Below are positions 159 through 37,539 of a stretch of DNA of 42,474 bases, in pieces (the stretch's first letter is position 1; each line of letters opens with the position of its first letter). Made by a program: the position numbers and the translations under genes. The stretch covers positions 183,453-225,926 of the forward strand of contig DATIIB010000001.1 of NCBI GenBank assembly GCA_035480055.1. The letters are read 5' to 3'. The DNA comes from Candidatus Saccharimonadales bacterium. Lineage in GTDB: Bacteria > Patescibacteriota > Saccharimonadia > Saccharimonadales > DASZAF01. A model generated the notes under the pieces. The model was not told where the DNA came from and did no database searches. It worked only from the letters and a program-made list of their open reading frames with translations.

Positions 159-542
159 ATGAAAGCCTTTTCTCTTAAGTTAACCAGCCTGGTCGTTGCC
201 ATCGTTGCCCTCTTTGGCGTCATGAGTTTGGCACCAGCTCTCGCCCAGCCGGCATTTGCTGACTCAAAAGGCGACGCCACAAATGGTGTGAACGATACCG
301 GAAGCAGTGGTGGGTTAAGCATTCCAAAACTCATCTCCAACGTCACGAGTATCCTCGCCTACTTTGTGGGAATCGCCTCAGTGATCATGATTGTGATCAG
401 CGGTTTTAAGTACGTTACCTCAAATGGCGACAGTGGCTCGGTGCAATCGGCCAAGAATACGCTGATCTATGCGATTGTCGGTTTGGTGGTGGCAATTTTT
501 GCCCAAGTGATTGTGAAGTTTGTAATCGGTAAACTCACCTAA
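159..542 (+). CDS. T4SS-type (TrbC/VirB2-like) pilin family protein
   Basis: 127-aa ORF with GGAG upstream and a signal peptide (LTSLVVAIVALFGVMSLAPALA). Two hydrophobic helices flank FKYVTSNGDSGSVQSAKNTLIYAIVGL, the motif I associate with CPR/Gram-positive T4SS pilins. Confidence 0.7.
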   Translation: MKAFSLKLTSLVVAIVALFGVMSLAPALAQPAFADSKGDATNGVNDTGSSGGLSIPKLISNVTSILAYFVGIASVIMIVISGFKYVTSNGDSGSVQSAKNTLIYAIVGLVVAIFAQVIVKFVIGKLT

Positions 543-554
543 GCATAAGATAGG

Positions 555-583
555 TTGTCTCTGTGCACAAAAAATGCTATATA
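555..583 (+). promoter_or_regulatory. Putative sigma70-type promoter for the second complete pilin gene
   Basis: TTGTCT (555-560), a 17-nt spacer, then TGcTATATA (575-583) in the AT-rich spacer between the pilin genes. Confidence 0.35.
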
Positions 584-628
584 CTGTATAGTAATTAGTA
601 AGCAAAAACGTATAAATAAGGAGCTTAT

Positions 629-1039
629 ATGATCCGTTCAATAACAAAGATTGCTGCCGGCATGATAGCCACCTTGGCTCTAGTGTTCGGTGTGTCGCTT
701 GTTCCTGCCCTCTCGGCCTCAGCGCAGAGTAACTTGGAAACAGGTGTCTGTAGTGGTGTGACCGCTACAGGAGCTGCCGACTGTAAGGACGCGAATGGCG
801 ATGGCCTTCAGGGGCTCGTCAGGAACATCTTAAACATCCTCTCTTGGGTGATTGGTGTGGTCTCGGTGGTAATGATTATCATCGGTGGCTTCCGCTACAT
901 CATCTCAAGTGGCGACTCTGGTCAGGTGCAATCGGCCAAGAATACCATTCTCTACGCCATCGTCGGTTTGGTAATTGTCCTCTTTGCGCAGTTGATCGTC
1001 CGATTCGTGATTGGTTCTGCAACCAAAGCCAACGGCTAA
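629..1039 (+). CDS. T4SS-type (TrbC/VirB2-like) pilin family protein
   Basis: 136-aa ORF with AAGGAG upstream and a signal peptide ending ALSASA. It has the motif FRYIISSGDSGQVQSAKNTILYAIVGLVIVLFAQLIV and is paralogous to 159..542. Confidence 0.7.
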   Translation: MIRSITKIAAGMIATLALVFGVSLVPALSASAQSNLETGVCSGVTATGAADCKDANGDGLQGLVRNILNILSWVIGVVSVVMIIIGGFRYIISSGDSGQVQSAKNTILYAIVGLVIVLFAQLIVRFVIGSATKANG

Positions 1040-2441: not shown

Positions 2442-2529
<88 letters not shown>

Positions 2530-3387: not shown

Positions 3388-3464
3388 GCACCCGTAGCTC
3401 AGCTGGATAGAGCGTTGGCTTGCGGAGCCAAAGGTCGTAGGTTCGAATCCTGCCGGGTGTACCA
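3388..3464 (+). tRNA. tRNA-Arg(GCG), CCA encoded
   Basis: 77-nt cloverleaf with acceptor GCACCCG/CGGGTGT, anticodon stem TTGGC/GCCAA, loop TTGCGGA (anticodon GCG) and T-loop GGTTCGAATCC. Confidence 0.9.
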
Positions 3465-3465
3465 A

Positions 3466-3497
3466 CTAAAATATCCCTCGTGTGAGGGATATTTTAG
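3466..3497. terminator. Bidirectional terminator between tRNA-Arg and the convergent Nudix gene
   Basis: 14-bp perfect stem CTAAAATATCCCTC/GAGGGATATTTTAG with loop GTGT. The outer stem positions are A/T-rich in both directions. Confidence 0.7.
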
Positions 3498-3504
3498 TTT
3501 GGCA

Positions 3505-3987
3505 TCAATCTTCCGAGGATTCCTGGTTATCCGTGCGCCAATTGAGTTGTTGAATTGCAAGCTCTTGGTATTGAGCTTGGCTTGCAAAGAGAATATTATT
3601 CCTGTCGAGGTCGTCTGTGACCGGTCTCCATTCTACAGCAATAGCATCGCTTCCAGCTTGGATGGTTATAATCCGCGCCTCTTCTTCGTCAAGATGAATG
3701 TAGAGTGCGGTTGTTTCCATCCAGGCATTGTCTGTATTACGTGAATCATCAACGTATCCGTCATATACAACAACCGCCTCAGAGAAGTCGAGTTCCACAC
3801 CACCAACGCCTGCTTCTTCCCTCAGCTCGCGACCTGCAGCCTCCCACGGCTCTTCCCCATCATCCACCTTACCGCCCGGTAACGCCCACTCCTGGGTGTC
3901 TCTCTTTTGATGAGTAATGTTTCCAGCTCGCCAGTCTCTGGGTTGTTGCGTGTCACGATAGGGTCTGCCGCTTGGGTTGGTCCCCAT
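3505..3987 (-). CDS. NUDT9-like ADP-ribose pyrophosphatase, C-terminal fragment carrying the Nudix box (downstream of the frameshift)
   Basis: Nudix box GGKVDDGEEPWEAAGRELREEAGV. The homology starts at ...KRDTQEWALPGG, and the ORF's own N-terminal ~25 codons overlap the upstream fragment in another frame. Confidence 0.75.
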   Translation of the reverse strand: MGTNPSGRPYRDTQQPRDWRAGNITHQKRDTQEWALPGGKVDDGEEPWEAAGRELREEAGVGGVELDFSEAVVVYDGYVDDSRNTDNAWMETTALYIHLDEEEARIITIQAGSDAIAVEWRPVTDDLDRNNILFASQAQYQELAIQQLNWRTDNQESSED

Positions 3988-4808
3988 TTGTCGAGCATAC
4001 CTCGACCTTGCAGCCCCGTCCTGCCTTGGGGGTTGAGCGGTCGCTGGTGTTGGTCGCGTTGCACCTCATAGACCTCTAAACTATCAAAGTCCTCTAGCTC
4101 TGCCGGATCAGCTGGATCGGGCCTGTCGCCTTCCTTACGAAAACTGGTATTTCCACGAGGCAGGTCAATGAAAGTCGGATTATAATCTGGAAACTCGGTG
4201 TCCCAATCAACTTTGTCGTCGGGCACAGTCGCCCTTTCCACGCTAGTCAGTCCGAGTTCGACCTTCGCCATCTTGCAAAGCTTGGCATTGACAGCTGTTC
4301 TTGCGACGATATGAGGTCCTCCATTGAGCTCGCGGAATGTAGGCAGATCATCCATATGGACTTCGTCGGTGTCTTGGGAGGCTTCAGCGTAACCCCACGG
4401 TTCTGGTTCACCCTCGCTATAATCGGAGGTATCGTATTCGTCGTATTCGTCGCTGCCACCTGGGAAAAAAGGTGCAGGCGGTTCTTTGCCACTTCCTCCT
4501 CCTGCTAGCGGAGTGGGTGCCTCGGCAGGAGGCTCTTCCTCGCGTGGCTCCTCACTTGGCTCGCCTGATCCTCCAGAATCGTATGGGGTGGACACTGTTG
4601 CGCGGAGCGCTTTTTTCGGCAGCGCGTCTAATGTATTACGCTCATCGTCGACCACTTCATATACAGAAACGGTTTTCTCCAAGACTTCAGCGAGTCCTAC
4701 CTCGCCGCCATCGTCAGATAAAAACCGATCCGTATTCTCAGGGGCAGTATTTTCGGCAGCCCTTTCTGCGGTAGTATCTCCTGTAAAAGGAGCGAAGTCA
4801 TTGATCAT
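3822..4808 (-). CDS. N-terminal fragment of the same NUDT9-like protein: shared leader module plus the pre-Nudix motif (upstream of the frameshift)
   Basis: GAGGAGG RBS. An acidic Gly/Pro-rich leader (VGLAEVLE...PTPLAGGGSGKEPP...DEYDEYD) is followed by NPQGRTGLQGRGMLDKWGPTQAADPIVTR, the motif preceding the Nudix box in NUDT9-family enzymes. The meaningful reading ends near 3909. Confidence 0.75.
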   Translation of the reverse strand: MINDFAPFTGDTTAERAAENTAPENTDRFLSDDGGEVGLAEVLEKTVSVYEVVDDERNTLDALPKKALRATVSTPYDSGGSGEPSEEPREEEPPAEAPTPLAGGGSGKEPPAPFFPGGSDEYDEYDTSDYSEGEPEPWGYAEASQDTDEVHMDDLPTFRELNGGPHIVARTAVNAKLCKMAKVELGLTSVERATVPDDKVDWDTEFPDYNPTFIDLPRGNTSFRKEGDRPDPADPAELEDFDSLEVYEVQRDQHQRPLNPQGRTGLQGRGMLDKWGPTQAADPIVTRNNPETGELETLLIKRETPRSGRYRAVRWMMGKSRGRLQVAS

Positions 4809-4900
4809 AAAGTCCTCCTCTGTTCAGGGGTATTGTAGTGCAATAAGGTGTTTAGGGCTGTGAAGAGCATTTTCCTAGTCAAATGACACGAGTTGGAGTA

Positions 4901-6058
4901 TCATTCTCCTGTTCTGGAGGTGAGAACGTTTTGAAGCGCCTTCAAGCGCTGGTGGTGATGTGATTGAGTGCCATCCTCAAAAAGTACCTCTTGATAGTCG
5001 GTGTGATCAGCGAGTAAGGTGTTGGCAAAAGTTACTGGCGTGGTAAGGGGTAAATCTTCCTTATGTAACCTCGTGCGTAGCTCTTCAACTGTAGGAGGCC
5101 GGCCAGTTGCATCGCGGACCGCATCTAGCGCAATGTAGTACTCGTCAGTTGTAGTTCTAAAGAAGGCAGCGAGCTGCCCAGCATGATATTCTGCGTCCAA
5201 TTCGCTCGGCGGCGCACTCAAATAACGATAGGCACGTATTGAATTACCTAGTGCATCGATTTCACCAGGGGCGCACCTGAAGACAGCCGAAACAACCGCT
5301 CGACCTTCTTCTAACGAAGCACTATGTTGCGTTATCGCCTCGTTGGCGTCGGAGGTGACTGCATTCGAAAAACTCCTGACGCTCACTTCCTCATTGCCGA
5401 TAGTACCCGAAAAGTAAAAATTCTCTTGCTCATGAGCCAGTAAACATCCACTGAGCATGGTGTGTGCTTCGCTGGGTTCTATGTATTTTTCTTTGAGCTC
5501 AGCAAGTTTGGAGACGAGTTCTTCAGATGACTCATAGCCGAGCGAGCGAAGATTCGCCAAGTCATAAGTGGAAGGTTCCTGTGGAGCCACTCCCATTCTT
5601 GCAAAATCAATTTTACGCATTATACCTACAGGCTGTACTGTAGGCGATACAAGGATTTGCTCCTCTCCCTTAATTTTCCCCCGAAACACGCCCACCTTAT
5701 ACACAACTTTAAGTGGTGGATGACCAGAGGGCGTAGGAGCATCTAAGGCGACTTGTGCATGCGCCATCTCGTGCATAAAAGTTTTTTCCGCCGCCGCTTC
5801 TCTATCCTCGGGAGTGTTAAATGGGAGGAGTTCGGTCGCTTGACGTATAAGCACTCTAAATTCTTCTGGATCTTTTGCATGAATGACATTGGGAGCGTTT
5901 TCATCGCCTTCAACAAAACCCATAAGCGCTTCATCAGGAAGTGCCTGCATCACATTATGTAGCTCCGAATCCTCATTTAAGGTATGCGAGAGAAGTTTAC
6001 CTTCGCTCGTTGCGTCGGTCACTCCTAGTGAGATTGCATTTTCGGCTGCTCGCTGCAA
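4901..6058 (-). CDS. Hypothetical protein: HExxH (putative zinc-metallopeptidase-like) N-terminal region plus C-terminal 'domain X'
   Basis: FMHEMAHAQ at 5759-5773. The C-terminal ~175 aa are paralogous to the C-terminus of 6066..7049. The start is uncertain: TTG 6058, GTG 5953 or ATG 5950. The ORF extends to 6304 only by overlapping the upstream gene. Confidence 0.6.
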   Translation of the reverse strand: MQRAAENAISLGVTDATSEGKLLSHTLNEDSELHNVMQALPDEALMGFVEGDENAPNVIHAKDPEEFRVLIRQATELLPFNTPEDREAAAEKTFMHEMAHAQVALDAPTPSGHPPLKVVYKVGVFRGKIKGEEQILVSPTVQPVGIMRKIDFARMGVAPQEPSTYDLANLRSLGYESSEELVSKLAELKEKYIEPSEAHTMLSGCLLAHEQENFYFSGTIGNEEVSVRSFSNAVTSDANEAITQHSASLEEGRAVVSAVFRCAPGEIDALGNSIRAYRYLSAPPSELDAEYHAGQLAAFFRTTTDEYYIALDAVRDATGRPPTVEELRTRLHKEDLPLTTPVTFANTLLADHTDYQEVLFEDGTQSHHHQRLKALQNVLTSRTGE

Positions 6059-6065
6059 AGCCTCT

Positions 6066-7049
6066 CTAAAAATCTGGTTCCCGCTCAGCGGCAGTGAGCT
6101 GCTCCTGTAATTTGTGGAGACGCCGGTGATGTGTATCGTGGTCAGGCTGTTCAGTGAGTAGTTCCGTGTAGCTCGTACCCTCAAGATGCGTTCCGACAAA
6201 AACTGTAGGATCTGATAATGAAACCCCCTCTTTATTAAAAAGCCCTGGAAGATCATCGATTGTAAGGGGTTGCCCAGTGGTAGCATAGGTCTGTTCCATG
6301 GCATCTAAAAGATGATCGGGTGTTACCTCGAACAATGCGGCGAGTTGTATGAAGTGATGATCAAGAGACAACTCGCGAGGCACAGCGCTCACGTAGCTGT
6401 AAAGCCTGACAGGATTATCATGCGCGTCAGTTTCATCTGGCTCACAAGTGAATTCGACTGAAATAATTGCTTTGTTTTCTGAGAGAAGCGCTTCGTGCTC
6501 TTCGATACACGAAGCATTGTTGGTATGAGAAGCGCCTAAGGTGGTTTGGTAGCTACTCACTCGCACCTCTTCTCTATCGATGGTACCAAACCAATAGAAT
6601 CCGTCTCCGAGAGCTTCTCCAGTTCCGAGCAAGGCTTGATTAAGTGTTTCATGCACGTCTGAAGGATGGACGTGTTCGGCTGTGCTTTCGCCTTCTTCCC
6701 CGCCCTCTCCATAATCGTCAGCTGGTGGGAGAGTCGTGTCACCAGGGGGTAATCTATTTCCTCCGCCACCTGTAGTAAGTGGAGGAGATTGATCTTGGGG
6801 AGATTCGGGAGTGTTTGGGGAGGCCTGGCCTTGATCGTTGGTACCGAGCGATGTTTCTTCTGCATTGGCGGCTTGCGGCTCTTCGATCACTTCTCCGACA
6901 GGAAGCGCAAACTCATCGTATTCCATGGCAGCAGATGCTTGCTCCTGCTCAATAGATGGCTGTGTTGCGGCAGCATCGTCAGCCTCTGCGCATGGGTTCC
7001 ATGGTTTTGGTTGCCTATCAATCTGAGAAGTGTCTCCGTACTCGAGCAT
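6066..7049 (-). CDS. Hypothetical protein: shared N-terminal leader module plus 'domain X'
   Basis: It starts MLEYGDT and contains AATQPSIEQEQA, LPVGEVIEE, PPLTTGGGGNRLPPGD and DDYGEGGEEGE. The C-terminal domain GFYWFGTIDREEVRVSS...HHRRLHKLQEQL is paralogous to 4901..~5430. Confidence 0.7.
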   Translation of the reverse strand: MLEYGDTSQIDRQPKPWNPCAEADDAAATQPSIEQEQASAAMEYDEFALPVGEVIEEPQAANAEETSLGTNDQGQASPNTPESPQDQSPPLTTGGGGNRLPPGDTTLPPADDYGEGGEEGESTAEHVHPSDVHETLNQALLGTGEALGDGFYWFGTIDREEVRVSSYQTTLGASHTNNASCIEEHEALLSENKAIISVEFTCEPDETDAHDNPVRLYSYVSAVPRELSLDHHFIQLAALFEVTPDHLLDAMEQTYATTGQPLTIDDLPGLFNKEGVSLSDPTVFVGTHLEGTSYTELLTEQPDHDTHHRRLHKLQEQLTAAEREPDF

Positions 7050-7055
7050 TGTGAG

Positions 7056-7064
7056 AGTGTAGCA
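7056..7064 (-). promoter_or_regulatory. Extended -10 (TGcTACACT) 6 nt before the ATG at 7049; leaderless start
   Basis: On the minus strand: TGcTACACT, then ctcaca, then ATG. There is no SD. Confidence 0.45.
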
Positions 7065-7140
7065 TCTCACAGGAAAAAATGTCTAGCGTAACTCCCCTCT
7101 CGCCAAAGAGTCTCATTTATAGTACAATACCCCTTGTTCT

Positions 7141-7233
7141 GGAGAGGTACCCAAGCGGCTGAAGGGGACGGTTTGCTAAATCGTTAGACTGGAGCAATCT
7201 GGTGCGAGGGTTCGAATCCCTCCCTCTCCGCCA
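7141..7233 (+). tRNA. tRNA-Ser(GCU), CCA encoded
   Basis: Acceptor GGAGAGG/CCTCTCC, anticodon stem ACGGT/ATCGT with loop TTGCTAA, and a long variable arm. Confidence 0.95.
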
Positions 7234-7237
7234 TAAT

Positions 7238-7266
7238 AAAAAGCATATCTTTTGGATATGCTTTTT
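7238..7266. terminator. Bidirectional terminator (tRNA-Ser(GCU) / convergent gene 7270..8436)
   Basis: AAAAA-GCATATC-ttttg-GATATGC-TTTTT. Confidence 0.7.
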
Positions 7267-7269
7267 AAG

Positions 7270-8436
7270 TTATCGCGTACGGAGCCTAGCTGGAGCTGAG
7301 AGCCGATTGTAATAGGCGTCTATTTCCTGTCGCACAAACCCTCGAGCCCTGGTAATGATAGGGAGATATTTTTCGCCTCGAGACGTTCGGAACTGCGTTT
7401 CGGCTTTCTCTAACTCTCTCGCTATTATGGTGACTGCGATAAAGCTTTCACCATCCACGAGATCGCGGATGACTTCTGCAAAAGCTGCTTCAGCTGCTTC
7501 AGCATCTTCGCGGCTCGATAAGAGAGCGCTAATCGTGCTCTTTGCTGGTCTAACCGCCTCCGTTTCCATACTGGCGCGCAGCTCCACAATTCGCGGATGC
7601 GTTCGGATAATTTCTGGACTGCCGCCTTGCCGAACAAGCTCAATATAAAGAGGCTCAAGATTGGCAAAGTCGATCAGCAACAGGGGGTCGGCCTCTCCTT
7701 CGCGTTGGCGCAGCTCATACTGAGTACGGAGTTCTTCGCGATGTTGACAAAGCAATTGAATGGCTACGTTGGGATCTGATTGAGCGAGAACATCTTTAGA
7801 AATCCCACGCAGCGTATCACTGGGCAGATTCTCATAAGCCCGACGTTCCTGCACGCGGCGCAAGCCAGCAGTTGCTACCGCAAGTACTTCCGAGGGAAGC
7901 ACGTTCCAACGCTCGAGTAATTGGAGTTGCTGTTCGTTTGGAGGAGTTTGGCTGGTAAGCACCGCTTCCGCCAGCGGTCGCGCTTGGGTGAGGAAAAGAG
8001 TGTCAGCTGCGCGCTTCTCATCATCTGAGGGATTAGGGATGGTCGAGATACTCGCAAAATCTCCTGCCACAAAGGCTGCCTGTAGGGCCTGAGGATTGCC
8101 AGCAAGTGCTTCACCACGCTGCGCAAAATATGCCTCAAGGTGCGGTGGTTTGTAGTCTGTAAATTCTGCCAAGGCGCCTGCAGCTATGAGTGAAGCGCGA
8201 GTGCGTGAAAGGGCGTTGCCGAGCCTTGCCTGCGCATCTTCCGGCAGCTCCGGCGCGCGGAACGCGTCTCTCATGTCGCCGTAGATAGTTGCAATGCATT
8301 CGTGGGCAGCAACTGCGTCGCCGGCCTTTAAGAGTGTATTTGCCTGCTCTAACCGAGGTACGACCAATAATTCGTACACATCGCTAGACGAAGACGGATC
8401 ATACTCGTAAGTATGAGCTGAGGTTGTTTCGGACAT
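7270..8436 (-). CDS. Hypothetical protein (388 aa, predicted helical, no TM)
   Basis: Long ORF with an AGGTGA RBS-like motif and TGgTAAAAT upstream. I do not recognise any motif. Confidence 0.6.
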   Translation of the reverse strand: MSETTSAHTYEYDPSSSSDVYELLVVPRLEQANTLLKAGDAVAAHECIATIYGDMRDAFRAPELPEDAQARLGNALSRTRASLIAAGALAEFTDYKPPHLEAYFAQRGEALAGNPQALQAAFVAGDFASISTIPNPSDDEKRAADTLFLTQARPLAEAVLTSQTPPNEQQLQLLERWNVLPSEVLAVATAGLRRVQERRAYENLPSDTLRGISKDVLAQSDPNVAIQLLCQHREELRTQYELRQREGEADPLLLIDFANLEPLYIELVRQGGSPEIIRTHPRIVELRASMETEAVRPAKSTISALLSSREDAEAAEAAFAEVIRDLVDGESFIAVTIIARELEKAETQFRTSRGEKYLPIITRARGFVRQEIDAYYNRLSAPARLRTR

Positions 8437-9021: not shown

Positions 9022-9027
9022 ACACCT

Positions 9028-9033
9028 ATTATA
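9028..9033 (-). promoter_or_regulatory. -10 box TATAAT 6 nt before the ATG at 9021 (leaderless)
   Basis: On the minus strand: TATAAT, then aggtgt, then ATG. Confidence 0.45.
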
Positions 9034-9062
9034 CACCACTCTTATAATTGTGTCGTGGAATG

Positions 9063-12881: not shown

Positions 12882-12973
<92 letters not shown>

Positions 12974-25888: not shown

Positions 25889-25896
25889 GTCAAAAT
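25888..25896 (+). promoter_or_regulatory. Extended -10 (TGtCAAAAT) 6 nt before the ATG at 25903 (leaderless)
   Basis: TGtCAAAAT, then ggtatc, then ATG. It lies inside the first codons of the divergent gene. Confidence 0.4.
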
Positions 25897-25903
25897 GGTA
25901 TCA
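25895..25903 (-). promoter_or_regulatory. Extended -10 (TGaTACCAT) 6 nt before the ATG at 25888 (leaderless)
   Basis: On the minus strand: TGaTACCAT, then tttgac, then ATG. It overlaps the opposing -10 by 2 nt. Confidence 0.4.
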
Positions 25904-30354: not shown

Positions 30355-33216
30355 ATGTTTCACCGATCTAAGCGCACCAAAGGTGCCAAAGACGAGTCTA
30401 AGCTCACGCTTTTTCAGCGCTACGGACTCTTCTTTTTTAATCATACTCGAGTCACTTTATTACTATGGGTCTTGCTGACCTCCTTTGGCGTGGCGTGTTA
30501 TACGACGTTCATGCAGCGCGAAGGATTCCCGAACGTGGCCGGGCCGTACAGTACGGTCAGCGGCACCTATTTTGTGAACAATAAAGAAAGAGTGGACCGC
30601 GAAGTTGCCAAGCCGCTTGCGCAGGCAGTGGCCAAACTCGGTGACGTCAAACAGGTGAGCAGCCAAGCTGGCGACAATTTTTTCTCACTGCAGATTGAAT
30701 TTAAAGACAAAGTGGTAGCTACCGATGGTAACAGTGAAGTGCAGCGGACTATTAGCGATCAGCACCTGTTGCCAACTGGCGCCAAGGCAGACTTTAAGCC
30801 ACTCTTTATTAGTAAGTTGACCCCAGATGGCGATGACATGCTGATTTCGATCTCCAGTGATCAGCTCAACTCTCAACAGCTGCAGCAAAAAGCTGACACG
30901 ATCGCCACCGCACTTGGCCAAGGTGGAAGCGCCGCAATTGACGGAGCTGAGCGAGTCAAAGCAAGCGAGACATTCCGAACCGGCAACGACCCCGAAACCG
31001 GTAAATCCGTATCTGAACAAAAAAGTTTTGACTGGATCGCGACTTCACAAGACGGCAAAGTAACCTTTGCGCCATCGATCTTGGTGGCTGTGCAAGCCAA
31101 AAAAGGCGTCGACATTCTGCACTTAGACGATGCGGCGCAAAAGAGTTTGCAGACCTTGCGTAATGACCCGCAATACTCGGGTCTCAAATTTACGGTGGCC
31201 GCGGACTTTGCGGAAAGCATTCGCACGCAGGTGAGTGGCTTGCAAGATAACTTGCTGGGCGGTTTAATTGCGGTGCTGGTGGTGAGCTTCCTGCTGATTA
31301 GTTTTCGTGCGTCGCTGATTACGGCTATCTCGATGAGTACGGTGCTGGCGATTACCGTTGGGGCGCTGTATGTGTTTGGCTATACCTTAAATACGATCAC
31401 ATTGTTCTCGCTGATTCTCTGTTTGGGCTTGATTGTTGATGACACGACCATTGTGGTGGAGGCGATTGATAAAGGTCGGCGCAGTGGGGCAAGGGCCCAC
31501 GAAGTGGTGGCCACGGCACTTAAAAAAGTAGCTTTGGCGAGTACAGCAGGCACCTTGATGACCATGATGGGTTTTGCGCCACTGCTCTTTATTAGCGGTA
31601 TCATGGGGCAATTCATTCACGCCATTCCGGTGACGATTATTACCAGTTTGGCAGTATCGCTGCTGGTCTCGATCACATTGATTCCATTCCTGGCCCGCTT
31701 TACCTTGCTGCGCGGCGAGGCCAAAAAACTCAGCAACCCAATTAGTAAACTGGAAACCGCGACCGCTCACGGGCTGTCGCAGCTGGTACGTCGCGTGGGA
31801 AAATCGCGCAAACAAGGCGTGGCGATTGGGCTTACCGCAATTTTGCTCAGCTTTATCATGCTGGGTGCAGGTGCCTACTTTGCGGGCAAGTTGAAATTTG
31901 ATATCTTCCCACCCACTAAAGATAGTGATGCGGTGTTGGTGGACATGAGTTTTGCGCCCGGAAGCACCATTACTGCATCACAGGCAACCAGTGCGCGGGC
32001 CAATCAGATTATTAGCGATACCATTGGGCAATATGTTCGCCGCGTTTCTTACCAGGGTTCTGGTTCGGATTCTGATGCGCATATCACCGTCGATCTGGTT
32101 TCGTTCAAAAAGCGTGATCCGACCTCGCCTGAGCTGGCGCAACAGTTGCAGGACAAATTTGCCAACTTTACAGGCGCCAAAGTGCAGGTTCATGCCGACG
32201 CTGGTCCCGCACCAGCTGGCAGCTTCACCATGCAAGTTCGTAGCGAAGATAGCACCAAGTCCAAGCAGTTGGCCACCGCTATCCAAGAGTACCTGGAAGG
32301 CCGTGAGCTCAAACGGCCCAACGGCACAGTTGCCCACATCCACAATGTGGAAGTGAGTGGTAGTAACTCCATTCAACGCGATAATGGCGTTCGCTATTTG
32401 CAGATCGACGGTAGTTTTGACGCTGACGATACCTCCACGCTGGTGCCGATTACGCAAGATTTGCTCAAAAAAGGGTTTGATAACGACCGCGTGCAGCGCC
32501 AGTTTGGCTTGGACGGCAGCGCATTAAAGTACGATGTTGGGCAAGAATCGCAAAACCAAGATTCGTTTAAGAGTATGTTGATCGCCTTTCCAATCCTGTT
32601 AGTAGCTATGTATATCCTGTTGGCCATTCAGTTCCGCTCAACTTCGCAGCCGCTGATGATCTTCTTGGCTATTCCGTTTAGCTTCTTTGGAGTCACGGCT
32701 GGGCTGTACTTTACGCACAACTCCTTTAGCTTCTTTACGATGCTGGCGATCTTTGCGCTGCTGGGGATTGCGGTGAACAATACGATTCTTCTCACCGATT
32801 ATGCCAACCAGGGACGCAAACGCGGCCTTCGGCGCAGCGAGGCCATGGCTTCGGCACTTGAGGAACGCTTCCGTCCGCTGCTTACCACCTCGCTGACCAG
32901 TGTTGTAGCGCTGATCCCATTGGCGCTGAGCGATCCATTCTGGGAAGCCCTCGCTTTTACCTTGATCTTTGGATTACTCTCTAGTACCTTCTTGGTGGTG
33001 GTTGCCTTCCCGTACTACTACCTGGGTAACGAATTGATTCGGTCGCGCTTTAACCGCTGGCGAGCAATTGGCTGGCTGGTGCTGTTGATTGTGGGCGGTG
33101 TCGCTGTCAGCAAGCTGGTGGGCAAAGCAGCTGGGAACGGCTTTATGCTGGGCTACATTTTGCTCACCATTGCTTTCCTGATCGGCCGGGCGGTAAAACG
33201 TCGCCGCAATAGGTAG
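30355..33216 (+). CDS. RND superfamily efflux transporter permease (AcrB/AcrD/AcrF-like)
   Basis: 953 aa with a 12-TM layout and two large extracytoplasmic loops. It has the LIVDDTTIVVEAI motif in TM4 and a duplicated half-structure. Confidence 0.85.
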   Translation: MFHRSKRTKGAKDESKLTLFQRYGLFFFNHTRVTLLLWVLLTSFGVACYTTFMQREGFPNVAGPYSTVSGTYFVNNKERVDREVAKPLAQAVAKLGDVKQVSSQAGDNFFSLQIEFKDKVVATDGNSEVQRTISDQHLLPTGAKADFKPLFISKLTPDGDDMLISISSDQLNSQQLQQKADTIATALGQGGSAAIDGAERVKASETFRTGNDPETGKSVSEQKSFDWIATSQDGKVTFAPSILVAVQAKKGVDILHLDDAAQKSLQTLRNDPQYSGLKFTVAADFAESIRTQVSGLQDNLLGGLIAVLVVSFLLISFRASLITAISMSTVLAITVGALYVFGYTLNTITLFSLILCLGLIVDDTTIVVEAIDKGRRSGARAHEVVATALKKVALASTAGTLMTMMGFAPLLFISGIMGQFIHAIPVTIITSLAVSLLVSITLIPFLARFTLLRGEAKKLSNPISKLETATAHGLSQLVRRVGKSRKQGVAIGLTAILLSFIMLGAGAYFAGKLKFDIFPPTKDSDAVLVDMSFAPGSTITASQATSARANQIISDTIGQYVRRVSYQGSGSDSDAHITVDLVSFKKRDPTSPELAQQLQDKFANFTGAKVQVHADAGPAPAGSFTMQVRSEDSTKSKQLATAIQEYLEGRELKRPNGTVAHIHNVEVSGSNSIQRDNGVRYLQIDGSFDADDTSTLVPITQDLLKKGFDNDRVQRQFGLDGSALKYDVGQESQNQDSFKSMLIAFPILLVAMYILLAIQFRSTSQPLMIFLAIPFSFFGVTAGLYFTHNSFSFFTMLAIFALLGIAVNNTILLTDYANQGRKRGLRRSEAMASALEERFRPLLTTSLTSVVALIPLALSDPFWEALAFTLIFGLLSSTFLVVVAFPYYYLGNELIRSRFNRWRAIGWLVLLIVGGVAVSKLVGKAAGNGFMLGYILLTIAFLIGRAVKRRRNR

Positions 33217-33256: not shown

Positions 33257-33262
33257 ACTACA

Positions 33263-34618
33263 ATGTTTGAACAAGGCGATACATTTTATACTGGCAGTCA
33301 GCAGCCGGAGCAACTGGATTCATATCAACCAAGAGCCGACGACACTGCGGCTACGCAACCATCTATGGAAGATGAGCAGGCAGGTCTGGCCGCGCAGCAG
33401 GATAAGCTGTCGCTTCCGCCGGAAGCCGTCTTGAAAGACGAGTCTCCTCTGGGACCAGGGCGAAAGAGCGACCAGACACCTGTGGACGCGGCTGAATCTT
33501 TAGAAGCCCAAGCCCCACCTTTAGCCCAGGGTGGCGGAGGAGATATGCTGCCACCGCCTGGAGATAGAATCCCTCCACCATCTGACGACGATGGTGAGAA
33601 TGGTGATGATGAGAGCGAAGAAAGGTTCGAGATAGCAGAAACGTTCGTCCAGCCCGGAGATATCATTGCTGAGCGTAGATTGGTCAATGGAACTCCTGTA
33701 ACGGCTGTATTGTTTACGGGTGATGTGGATCAAGCTCCAGAAGTCGCTGCGGCTGTCGTAGATTGCGACGTGGTTATTATCACCCCAGTGATGGATGCAT
33801 ATGCGGATGAAGAGCATCGTCAGGATCATGAAGAGAAGTGCAACGAACTGGCATCTCGCACAGCCGATCCCTTTTGGCGTGGAGTAGTCGCAGAAGCCGC
33901 TGCTGAGCACCAGATACAAGAAGCTGCTATTGCGTCGGAGCTGCGAGATACAGATAAACGCATTAAGATAGTTGCTCTTACCAACGAAGATTATCGCCAG
34001 GCGAATATTCCCGACTATAGCAATACTGGCCCAGAGCTCACTGCTAAGACAACCTCTGATATCCCTCCGCTCGAAGAGGTGCGGGCGTCGTTGTACCGGC
34101 TTGCTGAGTTTCATGCTCAAGTAGCACATTTGGAAGCGGCAAAATTATCAGGTGAAGTACAAGAAGTATTGGAGGAGGCTGGACGACGCGGGCAATCAGT
34201 TGGAGTAGTGATGTCGTCTGCGCTTCATTGCGAACTTATTGATGTTCTGGGCGGAGAAGCTTCCCGAGAGAGCCCCATTTCTTTACCAGAGCTCGCCGAG
34301 CAAGCCCTGGAGCAAATGGCGCGTCCGAGGATCGCTGCATTGCAGGGTGACATTAAACGGACCGTGCAGCTTATCGATAGATCTGTCTTTGCTTTGTATA
34401 CAAGATATGGTGCCATGAGCCTTGGTGAGTCTGAAGAGATATTTACCGCTATTGGTGAGTTTGCGTCAGTGATTGATGTACCAAGCATGGGGCAGGCTCT
34501 GAATGACCTGGGCCCTCAGCTCGCTGCTCCTGATCTCTTGCTTGAGGAAAAAGCACGTATTACAGCAAATTTTGCCACTCCCATACTTGCAACAATGCGC
34601 GAGCGAGGCTTCTTATAG
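33263..34618 (+). CDS. Leader-module family protein, tandem paralog 1 (unknown ~300-aa C-terminal domain)
   Basis: Contains MFEQGDT, AATQPSMEDEQA, LPPEAVLKDE, PPLAQGGGGDMLPPPGD and DDDGENGDDESEE. The C-terminal domain is shared with the next two genes (CDVVIITP...CNEL...SVGVVM...FATPILATMRERGFL). Confidence 0.75.
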   Translation: MFEQGDTFYTGSQQPEQLDSYQPRADDTAATQPSMEDEQAGLAAQQDKLSLPPEAVLKDESPLGPGRKSDQTPVDAAESLEAQAPPLAQGGGGDMLPPPGDRIPPPSDDDGENGDDESEERFEIAETFVQPGDIIAERRLVNGTPVTAVLFTGDVDQAPEVAAAVVDCDVVIITPVMDAYADEEHRQDHEEKCNELASRTADPFWRGVVAEAAAEHQIQEAAIASELRDTDKRIKIVALTNEDYRQANIPDYSNTGPELTAKTTSDIPPLEEVRASLYRLAEFHAQVAHLEAAKLSGEVQEVLEEAGRRGQSVGVVMSSALHCELIDVLGGEASRESPISLPELAEQALEQMARPRIAALQGDIKRTVQLIDRSVFALYTRYGAMSLGESEEIFTAIGEFASVIDVPSMGQALNDLGPQLAAPDLLLEEKARITANFATPILATMRERGFL

Positions 34619-34686: not shown

Positions 34687-36048
34687 ATGCTTGAAGGAGA
34701 AATACCCTTTTTACCAGGGAATAGCATTCCAGTTGCTCGAGAAGCCGATTCTGATGCCACACAGCCGCCAATCGATGCGGAGCAGGCTGCACTTAGGGAC
34801 GGACTTGCAGAGCGCTCGCTCTCGGTAGGCGCTGTCTTGGATGGAGAATTTGCTGCCACTGACGACGCGGACGGCGACGAGGGAGAGGCCGACTTTTATC
34901 CAGGAAATGAGGATAACCTAGATTCTCCAGATCCAGAAACTGAGCCAACCGAAGGTGGAGCTGGCGGGGGAGAGCCACCAGAAGACACCATTCGGGCCAG
35001 CGGTAACTTCGAAGACGATGATCGTGACGGTGAGTTTGGTGGTGATGACGAAGAGTATGAAGAAACTATCGCTGCCGAACCGAATGAGGTGGTGGTGGAG
35101 CGTCGCATCGTTGACGGTATTCCAGTTACGGCCGCGCTCAGTACGCAGCAGATCGAGGATACTCCACAAATTGCCGTCGCTGTGGGAACATGTGACATTT
35201 TGGTTGTCTATGCAGGCATTTGTGACGATGAGGTGGAACGAGCTCGACAAGAACAAGCTTGTAATCTTCTGACTTCATCAGAAGCGAGTCCGGAGCAGGT
35301 CGAGGATGCGATGGGGACTGCTATTCAGAATGATTTTTTTGCGCTGACCCTTGCGTCCCAACTGTCTGAAACAAATGCGAAGGTCCGAGTATTTTCGCTC
35401 AATGCGACTGATCCTGAGGCTTCGGCTATCGTGGCCCACGGTGAAGCACGAAATGAAGCAACGACCTTGGTGGCCGATCTTGCTCCTCCTTCAAAAATAC
35501 GCAGCGCCGCATACGAGTACGCTGAGACAGGTGCAGCGGTTACCCAGGCAGTGAATAGAAAGCTTGCTCAAGAAATGCCGAAAGCTATTGAAGAGGCTAA
35601 GCAGCTGGGCGATGCGTCAGTCGGGGTAGTGGTTCCTTATGGAGCCTGTCCAATCGTAGAAGCGATGGGCGAGCGAGCACCAAATGCACCTGTTGCCTCT
35701 GCAACAGAAAGGGTGGCTCAGACAGATTGGGCTTTCAACCAAGCCCGCACGGCTGCTGCTGAAGGAGACCTTGAGCAAGCGGCTGTGTTCATCGAAAGAG
35801 GTATTCTGGTAAGCTTCATGTGTTTAGGTACGGAGAGAGGGGTCGCAGGAATACACACGAGTGAAGTGAGCATGGCAATGGAACGTTATGTCTCTGGGCT
35901 GAGTGATCGAACAATAAGGAATGCGTTAACTTCCCTCGAGGAAGAATTGACCGATCGCAGCTTAGAAAGGAACGGCCGACAGAATGTTGTGCGTCGTTTC
36001 GCCGCACCTTTTCTGGCCGAAATGGTACAGCTAGGCTTTCTAGAATAA
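34687..36048 (+). CDS. Leader-module family protein, tandem paralog 2
   Basis: Contains MLEGEIP, DATQPPIDAEQA, LSVGAVLDGE, PTEGGAGGGEPPED and EDDDRDGEFGGDDEEYEE. The C-terminal domain has CDILVVYA...CNLL...SVGVVVP...FAAPFLAEMVQLGFLE. The TTG at 34678 is an alternative start. Confidence 0.75.
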   Translation: MLEGEIPFLPGNSIPVAREADSDATQPPIDAEQAALRDGLAERSLSVGAVLDGEFAATDDADGDEGEADFYPGNEDNLDSPDPETEPTEGGAGGGEPPEDTIRASGNFEDDDRDGEFGGDDEEYEETIAAEPNEVVVERRIVDGIPVTAALSTQQIEDTPQIAVAVGTCDILVVYAGICDDEVERARQEQACNLLTSSEASPEQVEDAMGTAIQNDFFALTLASQLSETNAKVRVFSLNATDPEASAIVAHGEARNEATTLVADLAPPSKIRSAAYEYAETGAAVTQAVNRKLAQEMPKAIEEAKQLGDASVGVVVPYGACPIVEAMGERAPNAPVASATERVAQTDWAFNQARTAAAEGDLEQAAVFIERGILVSFMCLGTERGVAGIHTSEVSMAMERYVSGLSDRTIRNALTSLEEELTDRSLERNGRQNVVRRFAAPFLAEMVQLGFLE

Positions 36049-36087: not shown

Positions 36088-37539
36088 ATGTTTGAACAGG
36101 GAGATACTTATAATTTTGAAGGCGCTGACGAAGCTGCGCCTGTCAGGGAAGAAGCGGGTGATCTTGTCGCCAGCCAGCCTCCAATAAACGAAGAGCAAGA
36201 AGGCCTGGCCAGGTTCGTTGCCGCACATACTGTGCCGGTGGGAGAGATCTTAGCTGATGAGCAGGCTCCTATTCTCAATGATTCAGGCGGAAAAGATGTG
36301 CCGGAAGAAGGCGGCCAACCAGCAGGATCAGCCAACGCGGAAGAGTCTGAGGGTGAGGCTATACCACTTGCACAAGGTGGCGAGGGCGGTATGAATCCGC
36401 CTGGTGAGTCTGAGACCTTTCAGCCAGCTGATGATGGAGACGACGAGAATGAGGAGCGTGAAGAGAGTAATAAGACTGGCCCCAATGAACTGGATCTCGC
36501 CTTCGAAAGTATCGTAGAGGGTTACGAAGGAGCTGGAGAGGTGCTGGCTCGCGAGGAACGACAAGTCCTTCAAGAGATACAACCCGGCGACACGCTCGTC
36601 GAGTCTCTGCAGATTGGCAATACGCAGGTGACGGCCGTGCTTACCCACAGCGAGATGCGAGAGACTCCGCAGATTGCTGAAACATTGCGGGAGTGCAAGA
36701 TAGTTGTTATTGGCACCTCTCGTTTTAAGACTGAGGAGGATCGATTGGCGCAACAAGCTGCATGCAATAATCTTACTAAGAGTGGTGCTGATCCAGACTG
36801 GGTCGCGGGGGTTGAAGCGCAGATAGCCGAGCGTGAGCTCTTTTATGCCGATATTGCTGACAAGCTGCTTGGCTCGGATAATATAATACGATTAGCTAAA
36901 CTTACTCCTTTAGACGAACCCCGTGTTGAAGTCATAGCGAATGCCTATTTTGCTCGAGAGCATTGCACAGGGTCACTCTCGACAGCACCACCTATTGAGG
37001 AGGCGAGAGAGGCGCTTTTGGCGTTTGCTCAGGCCGAGGTTGCAGCTATTGAGCTTGAGAAAGAGGTGCTCATTCGGGAAATAGAAGTTACTGCAGGCGT
37101 GGCAGAAAAGATGGGTGCTTCAGTTGGAGTAGTACTACCCATTCATCGGTTTGGAGTGGTTGATGCCCTTAAGGAAGGTGCTCCTCAGCAAGGAAACTCC
37201 TTTTTAGCCGAGAGGGTTGAACGAAGCCTCCTCGCAATACGCCGGCCTGTGATCCCTCTTCTTAGAGGCGATATCGAGCAAACACAGCGCTCTATTGATA
37301 GAACGCTTTTAGGACTTTATATACATGCTGGAGCGACTTTAGCCGAGGGAGGTTATTACTTTGACATTGCCACAAATTATGCTGCCGAGCTAGGTGATGA
37401 GGCGGTTCAGCGAAGCCTCGCCGAACTGGAGCCGCAAATTGCGGATCGGACGATAGGTCTAGAAGAGAATACAACCGTACTAAAAAACTTCGCAGCTCCC
37501 TTTGTTGCAGATATGCGCCGGCGAGGCTATCTGCCGTAA
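36088..37539 (+). CDS. Leader-module family protein, tandem paralog 3
   Basis: Contains MFEQGDT, VASQPPINEEQE, VPVGEILADE, IPLAQGGEGGMNPPGE and DDGDDENEEREE. The C-terminal domain has CKIVVIGT...CNNL...SVGVVLP...FAAPFVADMRRRGYLP. The ATG at 36079 is an alternative start. Confidence 0.75.
   Translation: MFEQGDTYNFEGADEAAPVREEAGDLVASQPPINEEQEGLARFVAAHTVPVGEILADEQAPILNDSGGKDVPEEGGQPAGSANAEESEGEAIPLAQGGEGGMNPPGESETFQPADDGDDENEEREESNKTGPNELDLAFESIVEGYEGAGEVLAREERQVLQEIQPGDTLVESLQIGNTQVTAVLTHSEMRETPQIAETLRECKIVVIGTSRFKTEEDRLAQQAACNNLTKSGADPDWVAGVEAQIAERELFYADIADKLLGSDNIIRLAKLTPLDEPRVEVIANAYFAREHCTGSLSTAPPIEEAREALLAFAQAEVAAIELEKEVLIREIEVTAGVAEKMGASVGVVLPIHRFGVVDALKEGAPQQGNSFLAERVERSLLAIRRPVIPLLRGDIEQTQRSIDRTLLGLYIHAGATLAEGGYYFDIATNYAAELGDEAVQRSLAELEPQIADRTIGLEENTTVLKNFAAPFVADMRRRGYLP

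What the first reader, a model, noticed from the sequence alone, without database searches (positions are those of the whole stretch)
3505..7070. One conserved N-terminal module fused to unrelated cargo domains (NUDT9-like Nudix, 'domain X'), with domain X reused behind an HExxH module
**Shared module.** Five proteins in this window share an N-terminal region of about 110-130 aa that has no signal peptide.
- Block 1 sits at the very N-terminus: M-[FL]-E-[QYG]-G-[DE]-[TI].
- Block 2 is A-[TS]-Q-P-[PS]-[IM]-x-x-E-Q.
- Block 3 is [LV]-P-V-G-E-[VI]-[LI]-x-[DE].
- Block 4 is P-L-[AT]-x-G-G-x-G-x-x-x-P-P-G-[DE].
- Block 5 is an Asp/Glu run.

**Cargo in this cluster.** The module heads a protein ending in an unknown ~175-aa 'domain X' (6066-7049). 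A more diverged copy heads a NUDT9-type ADP-ribose pyrophosphatase (3505-4808). The gene between them (4901-~6058) carries a second copy of domain X behind an HExxH region (FMHEMAHAQ) in place of the leader.

**Interpretation.** A constant N-terminus with swappable C-termini and shuffled modules is the grammar of polymorphic effector/toxin families such as LXG, Rhs and CDI. This module matches none of those that I recognise. In an epibiotic or parasitic CPR lineage, a delivered Nudix or peptidase effector is a plausible hypothesis. The module could equally be a localisation or regulatory prodomain.
Basis: partly seen in the sequence, partly recalled or inferred. Interest (0 to 1): 0.85.

Follow-up and report, generated by a model that had tools for sequence, protein, structure and literature searches.

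The report
Orphan acidic leader on Saccharibacterial paralogs
Four genes of one uncultured Saccharibacterium share a roughly 115-residue acidic, disordered N-terminal leader placed on two unrelated unknown domains; the pattern is real, but it was found nowhere else in the public protein collections searched, so the idea that it marks secreted effectors is untested.

Summary
The modular pattern is real but smaller than claimed.

- **Leader:** Four proteins (X 6066-7049; Y1 33263-34618; Y2 34687-36048; Y3 36088-37539) share a significant ~115-aa acidic N-terminal leader that is predicted to be disordered.
- **Cargo:** Three of the four are tandem paralogs with the same C-terminal domain Y. The leader therefore sits on two cargo types, not many.
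- **Fifth copy:** The NUDT9-like Nudix gene matches only the distal half of the leader, weakly. It is also split by a frameshift at 3905-3908.
- **Domain X:** It is duplicated behind an HExxH-bearing head (38% identity, E=1e-35).
- **No relatives:** A profile search of 1.84 billion representative proteins returned only the four query proteins. Domains X and Y have no detectable sequence or fold relatives.
- **Context:** Both gene blocks are lineage-specific insertions in a conserved Saccharimonadales backbone. One block lies between two tRNA genes, about 4 kb from a type IV secretion locus.
- **Origin of X's leader:** It is closest to Y1's (49%) and shares promoter-like upstream sequence with it. 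This suggests one 5'-head swap.
- **Polymorphic-toxin reading:** The tested features were not met: no LXG match, toxin-family match or small downstream (immunity-sized) ORF.

My best reading is a disordered recognition handle for a common partner. Export through the neighbouring T4SS is possible but rests on circumstantial evidence only.

The parts
6705..7049 (-). Leader (module) of protein X. Block 1 is at 7029-7049, block 2 at 6939-6968, block 3 at 6879-6905 and block 4 at 6738-6782, followed by an acidic run.
   Evidence: Alignments; block coordinates; profile score 171.8 bits; net charge -20, hydrophobic fraction 0.16.
7056..7085 (-). Promoter-like site for X: TAGACA-18-TACACT with a TG extension, ending 6 nt before ATG 7049. 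There is no Shine-Dalgarno sequence, so a leaderless start is predicted.
   Evidence: Promoter scan; upstream alignment; X and Y1 upstream regions are 23/40 identical against a control maximum of 19/40.
6066..6677 (-). Domain X, copy 1 (residues 125-327 of protein X). It is an orphan domain.
   Evidence: 38% identity, E=1e-35 to the copy in the HExxH protein. No family or structure match.
4901..6058 (-). HExxH-head + domain X protein. The start is uncertain (TTG 6058, GTG 6022 or ATG 5950). HEMAH is at 5759-5773. Domain X copy 2 is at 4901-5488.
   Evidence: Gene callers disagree on the start (385, 373 and 349 aa). SprT-like match only E=0.23. The AF2 model is poor, mean pLDDT 41.7.
3505..4808 (-). 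NUDT9-like ADP-ribose pyrophosphatase gene with a ~190-aa acidic N-terminal extension. It is interrupted by a frameshift at the A4 run 3905-3908. It has its own Shine-Dalgarno sequence (GGAGG).
   Evidence: 1q33 E=1.5e-33 after adding one A; called as two genes: NUDT9_N and NUDIX.
4431..4670 (-). Stretch of the Nudix extension with weak similarity to leader blocks 3-5 (VSVYEVVDD ... PLAGGGSGKEPPAP ... SDEYDEYD).
   Evidence: Profile score 10.9 bits against a shuffle maximum of 9.4; E=0.023 among 450 ORFs; coordinates.
33263..34618 (+). Y1: leader (33263-33604) plus domain Y. A promoter-like site at 33227-33256 (TAGACA-18-TACATT with TG) ends 6 nt before the ATG.
   Evidence: In the AF2 model residues 1-131 have pLDDT ~30 and blocks 130-320 have pLDDT 60-88.
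34687..36048 (+). Y2: leader plus domain Y.
36088..37539 (+). Y3: leader plus domain Y.
30355..33216 (+). RND/AcrB/MMPL-family transporter gene immediately upstream of Y1-Y3. It is part of the same lineage-specific insertion between groEL and the conserved 221-aa gene.
   Evidence: Pfam ACR_tran 1e-91. No counterpart in 80 related groEL loci. Slot analysis.
3388..3464 (+). tRNA-Arg(gcg), the left boundary of the Nudix/HExxH-X/X block. It is followed by a perfect 16-bp hairpin at 3464-3499.
7141..7233 (+). tRNA-Ser(gct), the right boundary of the block. It is followed by a perfect 13-bp hairpin at 7237-7267.
159..1039 (+). Two VirB2-like T4SS pilin genes (159-542 and 629-1039). They form the edge of a T4SS locus that continues beyond the start of the window.
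   Evidence: PF18895 T4SS_pilin x5, PrgI, TraC-like and a VirB4-like ATPase on the same contig; translations, 47% identical to each other.

Best explanation
**What it is.** This is a species-restricted orphan gene family in a Saccharimonadales bacterium.

**How it arose.** It was built by tandem duplication plus one 5'-head swap.
- The shared unit is a gene 'head': a ~115-residue, strongly acidic N-terminal leader that is predicted to be disordered and carries four short conserved motifs. For X and Y1 the head also includes a similar leaderless-type promoter.
- An ancestral leader-Y gene triplicated to give Y1-Y3.
- Later, a Y1-like head replaced the head of a domain-X gene. The neighbouring HExxH-X gene keeps the other architecture.

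**How it probably works.** The leader is not a folded or catalytic domain. It most likely acts as a common recognition handle. Short linear motifs, including the invariant extreme N-terminus M-[FL]-E, would be bound by one shared partner, giving unrelated C-terminal domains a common fate.

**Which partner.** The partner could be an export machine (the adjacent T4SS is the obvious candidate) or a cytoplasmic factor. This is not resolved. I put about 0.2 on export and about 0.25 on a cytoplasmic partner within this explanation.

**Shown and inferred.**
- Shown: the homology, the restriction to one species, the insertion context and the direction of the head swap.
- Predicted only: the disorder.
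- Inferred: the handle function.
For: - The leader is significant in four proteins (127-172 bits).
- It is predicted to be disordered: pLDDT ~30 over residues 1-131 of Y1 while domain Y reaches 60-88. Net charge is -17 to -28 and the hydrophobic fraction is 0.16-0.18.
- Although predicted disordered, it is at least as conserved as the folded domain among the Y paralogs: 30-36% against 28-32%. Codons of block 1 differ synonymously. Both points argue for selection on the peptide.
- X's leader is closest to Y1's (49% against 34-36% to Y3 and Y2). X and Y1 also share upstream promoter-like sequence (23/40 against a control maximum of 19/40).
- Domains X and Y are unrelated.
- Both blocks are insertions in a conserved backbone.
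- A T4SS locus is adjacent. T4SS clusters are reported as essential for epibiotic growth in a cultured Saccharibacterium, and the passages I read name no substrates (10.1101/2025.01.22.634366; PMC12857230).
Against: - No partner has been identified.
- No relatives exist, so conservation can be judged only among four paralogs of one genome.
- The disorder call rests on one shallow-alignment AF2 model and on composition.
- The family could be young enough that the conservation is partly inherited rather than selected.
- To my knowledge, described T4SS translocation signals are usually C-terminal, not N-terminal.
- The Y genes lie ~32 kb from the T4SS.
- Leaderless-type promoters are common in this window (about 8 of 30 starts). 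That architecture is therefore not special to the family.
Confidence: 0.45

Rival explanations
1. One reading: this is a polymorphic effector or toxin family. The leader would be a trafficking domain that delivers swappable C-terminal toxins (X, Y, Nudix) into the host bacterium, for instance through the adjacent T4SS. The HExxH head would act as a processing peptidase.
For: - There is no Sec signal.
- Heads and tails are shuffled.
- The genes are lineage-specific accessory genes sitting in variable slots.
- The T4SS pilin array and VirB4/VirB6-like genes lie within ~4-9 kb of the X/HExxH/Nudix block.
Against: - Only two secure cargo types occur, and in one species only.
- X and Y match no toxin or other family.
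- No downstream immunity-size ORFs are present.
- There is no LXG Pfam match, and no YD-repeat or VENN feature was seen in the translations.
- The Nudix 'cargo' is frameshifted and only half-matches the leader.
- The N-terminal position is atypical for described T4SS signals (my knowledge).
Confidence: 0.15
2. The leader is an intramolecular regulatory or pro-region. Its acidic tail would mask or solubilise the attached domain until it is removed. The neighbouring HExxH protein might do the removal, for example near the PLAxGGxG block.
For: - The leader has an extreme negative charge.
- The Gly-rich block 4 is conserved.
- An HExxH protein that shares domain X is encoded 8 nt downstream of X.
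Against: - The HExxH region has no peptidase family support (E=0.23).
- Domains X and Y are themselves acidic (pI 4.4-4.9), so electrostatic masking by an acidic tail is unlikely.
- The Y genes lie far from the HExxH gene.
Confidence: 0.15
3. The leader has no specific function. It is simply inherited through duplication and one recombination event, and tolerated as a low-complexity tail in a fast-evolving orphan family.
For: - The family exists in one species only.
- Composition is strongly biased.
- Orphan genes fill the same variable slots in related genomes.
Against: - Motif-level conservation in the leader equals or exceeds that of the folded domain at ~30% paralog identity.
- Synonymous differences lie under conserved block 1.
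- None of the 40 slot ORFs with the most negatively charged N-termini in relatives approaches the leader's charge or low hydrophobic fraction.
Confidence: 0.15
4. The resemblance is a compositional or chance artefact of acidic, Pro/Gly-rich sequence.
For: For the Nudix N-terminus only: pairwise E values of 0.06-3 and a profile score of just 10.9 bits.
Against: - For X and Y1-Y3, composition-corrected BLAST gives E down to 1e-18.
- Profile scores are 127-172 bits with ordered, collinear blocks.
Confidence: 0.03

Closest known systems
Polymorphic toxin systems (LXG/T7SS, Rhs, CDI; Zhang & Aravind classification, from my knowledge)
   Same: - A constant N-terminal region heads different C-terminal domains.
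- Modules are re-used between neighbouring genes.
- The genes are accessory and lineage-variable.
   Different: - No LXG Pfam match; no YD-repeat or VENN feature seen.
- The N-terminal region is predicted to be disordered, not a folded trafficking domain.
- There are only two cargo types, in one species.
- The cargo domains match no toxin family.
- No immunity-sized ORF follows any member.
- No T5SS, T6SS or T7SS was seen nearby.
Xanthomonas-type T4SS effectors (X-Tfes) with a conserved ~120-aa VirD4-binding domain (XVIPCD; from my knowledge)
   Same: - A conserved ~120-residue recognition region is attached to diverse effector domains.
- A T4SS is involved that, in that case, targets other bacteria.
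   Different: - XVIPCD is C-terminal and folded; this leader is N-terminal and predicted to be disordered.
- There is no sequence similarity.
- No immunity genes are present.
- The T4SS here is of the monoderm MPF-FATA-like type described for Patescibacteria (10.1101/2025.01.22.634366).
N-terminal disordered secretion signals with chaperone-binding regions of T3SS substrates (from my knowledge)
   Same: - An unstructured N-terminal ~100 residues.
- A constrained extreme N-terminus.
- Placement on unrelated effector domains.
   Different: - No T3SS or flagellar genes were seen in the window or in the flanks I read.
- T3SS signals are not conserved as alignable motifs.
NUDT9 / TRPM2-NUDT9H ADP-ribose pyrophosphatases
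   Same: The 3505-4808 product, once the frame is restored, aligns with human NUDT9 over both the cap and Nudix domains (E=1.5e-33). Its Nudix box G-x5-E-x7-REUxEExGU is intact.
   Different: - It carries a ~190-aa acidic N-terminal extension.
- In this genome it is interrupted by a 1-nt frameshift just upstream of the Nudix box.
Minimal zincin / SprT-like HExxH domains
   Same: An HEMAH motif sits in a predicted long helix (model helix 83-106, local pLDDT ~70-78).
   Different: - No profile match: SprT-like E=0.23, against a curated cut-off of 25.6 bits.
- No third metal ligand could be assigned.
- An HExxH motif alone occurs by chance fairly often.

Membership tests
Polymorphic toxin systems (general) | A conserved N-terminal trafficking region is found on many different C-terminal toxin domains across strains and genomes. 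| tested here: not met
   The profile of the leader against 1.84 billion representative proteins returned only the four queries. There are two secure cargo types (X and Y) in one species.
Polymorphic toxin systems (general) | The C-terminal domain belongs to a recognisable toxin fold or family. | tested here: not met
   - No match for X or Y in Pfam, NCBIfam or PADLOC.
- No match in PDB sequences.
- No match with Foldseek.
- The structural models were of low to moderate confidence.
Polymorphic toxin systems (general) | A cognate immunity gene lies immediately downstream. | tested here: not met
   In the ORF maps, the gene downstream of X is HExxH-X (8-nt gap), then Nudix. Downstream of Y1 is Y2, then Y3, then a convergent conserved gene. 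No small ORF is found in the gaps.
LXG (T7SS) toxins | An N-terminal helical LXG domain (Pfam PF04740) and a WXG100/T7SS context. | tested here: not met
   No Pfam match at E<=0.1, or E<=10 for sub-regions. The leader is predicted to be disordered. No T7SS gene appears among the called genes of the locus.
Rhs / CDI toxins | YD or FHA repeats, a PxxxxDPxGL or VENN demarcation motif, and very large proteins. | tested here: not met
   The proteins are 327-484 aa with no repeat or family match.
T4SS effectors with a conserved recognition domain (XVIPCD type) | A conserved C-terminal domain that binds the coupling protein. | tested here: not met
   The shared region is N-terminal. The C-termini of X and Y are unrelated. 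Binding to a coupling protein cannot be tested here.
T4SS substrates (functional class) | Translocation that depends on the T4SS. | not testable with these tools
   Only proximity is shown. The pilin array, PrgI/VirB6-like, TraC-like and VirB4-like genes lie 4-15 kb from the X block.
Double-glycine leader peptides (PCAT substrates) | A short (15-30 aa) leader ending in GG, and a C39-peptidase ABC exporter nearby. | tested here: not met
   The leader is ~115 aa. Its GG block does not fit the hydrophobic -4 position when the sequence is inspected. The called genes with precomputed Pfam hits in the flanks show ABC_tran and ABC2_membrane only. The right end of the window was not scanned.
NUDT9-type ADP-ribose pyrophosphatase | A NUDT9 N-terminal cap domain plus a Nudix fold with an intact Nudix box. 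| tested here: met
   1q33 E=1.5e-33 over residues 189-429 of the frame-restored protein. The box is GKVDDGEEPWEAAGRELREEAGV. PF25969 and PF00293 hit the two fragments.
NUDT9-type ADP-ribose pyrophosphatase | A single intact reading frame. | tested here: not met
   The frameshift lies at the A4 run 3905-3908. The same sequence occurs in a Logan contig. I saw no slippery heptamer at the site when reading the sequence.
Zincin metallopeptidases | An HExxH motif in an active-site helix, a third metal ligand, and a family profile match. | tested here: inconclusive
   The motif is present at 5759-5773 in a predicted helix. The best profile match is SprT-like at E=0.23. There is no structural match.

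The most novel reading that the evidence does not exclude
The ~115-residue acidic N-terminal leader could be a previously unseen, lineage-specific translocation signal. The partly motif-sharing Nudix extension would belong with it. Such a signal would mark the substrates of the Saccharibacterial T4SS. That machine is reported as essential for epibiotic growth, and the literature I read names no substrate. X, HExxH-X and Y1-Y3 would then be the first candidate effector set of a CPR epibiont.
Probability: 0.12. Interest if true: 0.8.

Novelty: categorically new. Interest (0 to 1): 0.38.

Why it matters
What the essential type IV secretion system of Saccharibacteria transports is an open question. 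An N-terminal tag shared by accessory proteins next to such a locus would give concrete candidates. As it stands, the family is an orphan of a single uncultured species. 'Categorically new' here means only that the sequences and predicted folds have no detectable relatives. It does not mean that a new mechanism has been shown.

The practical value is modest:
- a well-delimited test case of a predicted-disordered leader conserved as strongly as the folded domains it heads;
- an example of how orphan genes in reduced CPR genomes are built by head swapping in tRNA-flanked and groEL-adjacent variable slots.

Tried and rejected
**Searches for relatives (all negative)**
- Word-indexed searches returned only self or window proteins. 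Queries were protein X, the HExxH+X alignment and the domain Y alignment.
- The exhaustive profile search with the leader returned only the four queries.
- DNA-pattern scans found nothing:
  - Genome contigs with HExxH+X;
  - Metagenome contigs with domain Y;
  - Viral contigs with all three alignments;
  - a metagenome scan with the Nudix protein, which gave one generic Nudix fragment.
- No members turned up in 80 related Saccharibacterial groEL loci, searched locally with HMMs.

**Family and structure assignment (all negative)**
- Pfam at E<=10, NCBIfam, PADLOC and PDB sequences gave nothing.
- The AF2 models were shallow, with pLDDT 41.7 and 53.5.
- Foldseek against PDB and BFVD gave nothing at E<0.001. 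Weak hits to a macrodomain, phosphatases and STAS domains were discarded as noise.
- The hypothesis that X and Y are distantly related was rejected (hhalign probability 0.3%).

**Other ideas rejected**
- Programmed frameshifting in the Nudix gene: I saw no X_XXY_YYZ heptamer, and the A4 run is too short for transcriptional slippage (reading).
- The leaderless promoter as a family-specific feature: similar -10-to-ATG spacing is seen at about 8 other genes in the window.
- att-like direct repeats flanking the tRNA-bounded block: none convincing.
- Analogous acidic-leader proteins in the variable groEL slot of relatives: none seen among the 40 slot ORFs with the most negatively charged N-termini.

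**Look-ups that failed**
Two exact look-ups, for the second assembly that carries these genes, failed.

Full report
**1. Organism and gene map**

The window comes from an uncultured Saccharibacterium (Saccharimonadales).
- Its GroEL is at most 80% identical to that of any of the best 80 species representatives returned. Nearly all of those records are titled Saccharibacteria or Saccharimonadales.
- The contig is CAYZNG010000001.1 of GCA_964479845.1, 491 kb long.

The minus strand of the finding's region carries three genes:
- a NUDT9-like Nudix gene at 3505-4808;
- an HExxH-containing gene at 4901-~6058, with its start uncertain (TTG 6058, GTG 6022 or ATG 5950);
- protein X at 6066-7049.

The other three leader-bearing genes are a tandem array on the plus strand: Y1 at 33263-34618, Y2 at 34687-36048 and Y3 at 36088-37539.

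*The leader in four proteins.* Blocks 1-5 are present and collinear in X, Y1, Y2 and Y3.
- Composition-corrected BLASTP of the N-terminal ~125 residues gives E from 1e-18 (X-Y1) to about 1e-4.
- A profile of the four scores each of them at 127-172 bits.

*The cargo.* Y1-Y3 share one C-terminal domain, domain Y (~330 aa, 28-32% identity). The leader therefore sits securely on only two cargo types, X and Y. These are unrelated by profile-profile comparison.

*Domain X.* It is truly duplicated: 38% identity over 197 aa, E=1e-35.

*The fifth copy (Nudix N-terminus).* This is weak.
- Pairwise E values are 0.06-3.
- It did not reach E<=0.001 in the library-wide search, although the protein is in the collection.
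- With all filters off, it scores 10.9 bits against profile positions 43-116 only (blocks 3-5). That is higher than any of 2000 shuffles of the same sequence (maximum 9.4).
- It is the best non-member among 450 local ORFs, at E=0.023.
- I treat it as a probable but unproven half-copy that lacks blocks 1 and 2.

*The Nudix gene is split.* ORF 3822-4808 and ORF 3505-3987 overlap in different frames.
- Adding one A to the A4 run at 3905-3908 restores a 434-aa protein. That protein aligns continuously with human NUDT9 through the junction (LLIKKRDTQEWALPGG against VAIKRKDCGEWAIPGG), with E=1.5e-33 and an intact Nudix box.
- A contig assembled by a different pipeline is 100% identical over 3751 nt, including the A4 run. 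Both public gene calls split the gene.
- I saw no slippery heptamer at the site.
- I therefore read it as a genuine frameshift and a probable pseudogene, pending read-level confirmation.

*HExxH.* The HEMAH motif at 5759-5773 is only a motif. The best profile match is SprT-like at E=0.23.

**3. Distribution**

The leader profile was run against one representative per 50%-identity cluster of about 15 billion proteins, 1.84 billion sequences in all. It found only the four query proteins. Because the proteins of this genome are in that collection, these four appear to be the only leader-bearing proteins detectable in the collection, and all lie in this window.

Nothing else was found for the leader, the HExxH+X protein or domain Y:
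- word-indexed searches;
- pattern scans of GTDB representative genomes, JGI metagenomes and IMG/VR;
- local HMM searches of 1.4 Mb of related Saccharibacterial DNA.

This is an orphan family of a single species-level lineage.

**4. Nature of the leader**

In the AF2 model of Y1, residues 1-131 have pLDDT ~30, while blocks 130-320 of domain Y reach 60-88. The leader carries a net charge of -17 to -28 over ~115 residues. It has 16-18% hydrophobic residues and is rich in Pro, Gly, Ala, Gln, Asp and Glu. It has no signal peptide and no transmembrane segment (by inspection).

Among the Y paralogs it is nevertheless as conserved as the folded domain, or more so: 30-36% against 28-32%. The codons under block 1 differ synonymously. 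This is the signature of short linear motifs under selection within a disordered region.

**5. Transcription units and how the family was built**

X and Y1 each have a promoter-like site: TAGACA-18-TG-n-TAC[AC][CT]T, ending 6 nt before the ATG, with no Shine-Dalgarno sequence. Y2 has a homologous, weaker version. These are predicted leaderless starts and they support M-[FL]-E as the true N-terminus.

This architecture is not unique to the family. About eight other genes in the window show it. The Nudix gene, the 388-aa gene and the RND gene have Shine-Dalgarno sequences instead.

X's leader is closest to Y1's (49% against 34-36% to the others). The 40 nt upstream of X and of Y1 are 23/40 identical in fixed register, against a maximum of 19/40 in 325 control pairs.

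The most economical history is therefore:
- a leader-Y gene triplicated;
- later, a Y1-like head (promoter plus leader) was joined to a domain-X gene;
- the tandem HExxH-X gene keeps the alternative head.

**6. Genomic context**

*The Nudix/HExxH-X/X block.* It lies exactly between tRNA-Arg(gcg) at 3388-3464 and tRNA-Ser(gct) at 7141-7233. Each tRNA is followed by a perfect hairpin. In a syntenic relative (L005) the same tRNAs and flanking genes (hsp20, comF, the 215-aa membrane protein) are present, but the block is absent.

*The RND-Y1-Y2-Y3 block.* It fills the slot between groEL and a conserved 221-aa gene. In 65 related genomes this slot ranges from 8 nt to 8 kb and holds unrelated lineage-specific ORFs. 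Among the 40 of those ORFs with the most negatively charged N-termini, none approaches the leader's charge or its low hydrophobic fraction.

*The T4SS locus.* A T4SS locus abuts the first block. It comprises:
- five VirB2-like pilin genes, two of them inside the window at 159-1039;
- two unknown large proteins;
- PrgI/VirB6-like, TraC-like and VirB4-like genes.

Patescibacterial T4SS clusters of this monoderm type usually lack relaxases. One was essential for epibiotic growth in Southlakia epibionticum. The passages I read name no substrates (10.1101/2025.01.22.634366; PMC12857230).

**7. Mechanism**

*Shown:*
- a species-restricted paralog family;
- one leader on two unrelated domains;
- domain X behind two different heads;
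- an insertion context;
- T4SS proximity.

*Predicted only:* the disorder of the leader.

*Inferred:* the leader is a recognition handle whose motifs are bound by a common partner. I put 0.45 on this as a whole, split roughly into 0.2 for an export machine and 0.25 for a cytoplasmic partner.

*Rivals:*
- the full polymorphic-toxin or effector reading (0.15);
- an autoinhibitory or pro-region, possibly processed by the HExxH protein (0.15);
- no specific function (0.15);
- artefact (0.03, relevant only to the Nudix copy).

**8. Comparison with known systems**

The grammar resembles polymorphic toxins, X-Tfe/XVIPCD effectors and T3SS N-terminal signals. Each membership feature I could test failed:
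- no LXG match, and no YD-repeat or VENN feature seen;
- no toxin-family cargo;
- no immunity gene;
- the wrong terminus for the T4SS recognition domains I know of;
- no T3SS genes seen in the window or flanks.

The Nudix product is a true NUDT9-family member by sequence, but it is frameshifted. The HExxH head cannot be assigned to a peptidase family.

**9. Verdict**

In sequence terms the family has no relatives, which is why I rate it 'categorically new'. A new mechanism has not been demonstrated.

Interest is moderate to low (0.38):
- it is a plausible lead towards T4SS substrates in Saccharibacteria;
- it is confined to one uncultured species;
- there is no functional handle on X or Y;
- one of the three proposed cargos is a probable pseudogene.

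Noticed in passing
window 3905-3908 (within 3505-4808, - strand): A one-base frameshift in an A4 run splits the NUDT9-like gene just before its Nudix box. The identical sequence occurs in a contig from a second assembly pipeline. It is probably a pseudogene.
   Followed up: yes
window 159-542 and 629-1039 (+); L083 10609-20489: The window starts inside an array of five divergent VirB2-like pilin genes. These belong to a T4SS locus that also has PrgI/VirB6-like, TraC-like and VirB4-like genes and two unknown proteins of 451 and 948 aa.
   Followed up: partly
window 2442-2529, 3388-3464, 7141-7233, 12882-12973, 42208-42297; L005 15949-19988: Four tRNA-Ser isoacceptors and one tRNA-Arg are scattered over the window. 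In relative L005 the same five lie within 4 kb. This region has therefore been rearranged and expanded by insertions at tRNA genes.
   Followed up: partly
window 29876-37548; L003-L082: The groEL-to-221-aa-gene interval is a variable slot in Saccharimonadales, ranging from 8 nt to 8 kb in 65 genomes (median 1.1 kb). Here it holds an RND transporter gene plus Y1-Y3.
   Followed up: yes
window 25858-27849 (+): Two further orphan genes (363 aa and 274 aa, no family match) are inserted between the phosphoglucomutase-like gene and groEL. Those two genes are 340 nt apart in relative L009.
   Followed up: partly
window 4826-4837, 7123-7134 and upstream of 18029: The promoter-like sites of the Nudix gene, tRNA-Ser(gct) and tsaD share the string TACA[AC]TACCCCTG (a -10 box plus a C-rich discriminator). 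Many genes have a -10 box 6-9 nt before the ATG and no Shine-Dalgarno sequence, which suggests frequent leaderless mRNAs in this genome.
   Followed up: partly
window 18077-21136 (-): This is a 1019-aa protein. It has a weak PP2C-phosphatase-like N-terminal region (E~5e-4 to 8e-4, below curated cut-offs), Gly/Ala-rich hydrophobic stretches that look like membrane segments, a Pro-rich linker and a large unknown C-terminal part.
   Followed up: no
window 7270-8436 and 8497-9039 (-): Upstream of X, on the same strand, lie a 388-aa orphan protein and a second, small Nudix hydrolase (180 aa). A perfect hairpin at 7237-7267 separates them from X.
   Followed up: no
window 34570-34618, 36000-36048, 37490-37539: The extreme C-termini of Y1-Y3 are conserved: NFA[AT]P[FI][LV]A.M...G[FY]L. 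This could be a functional tail and was not examined further.
   Followed up: no
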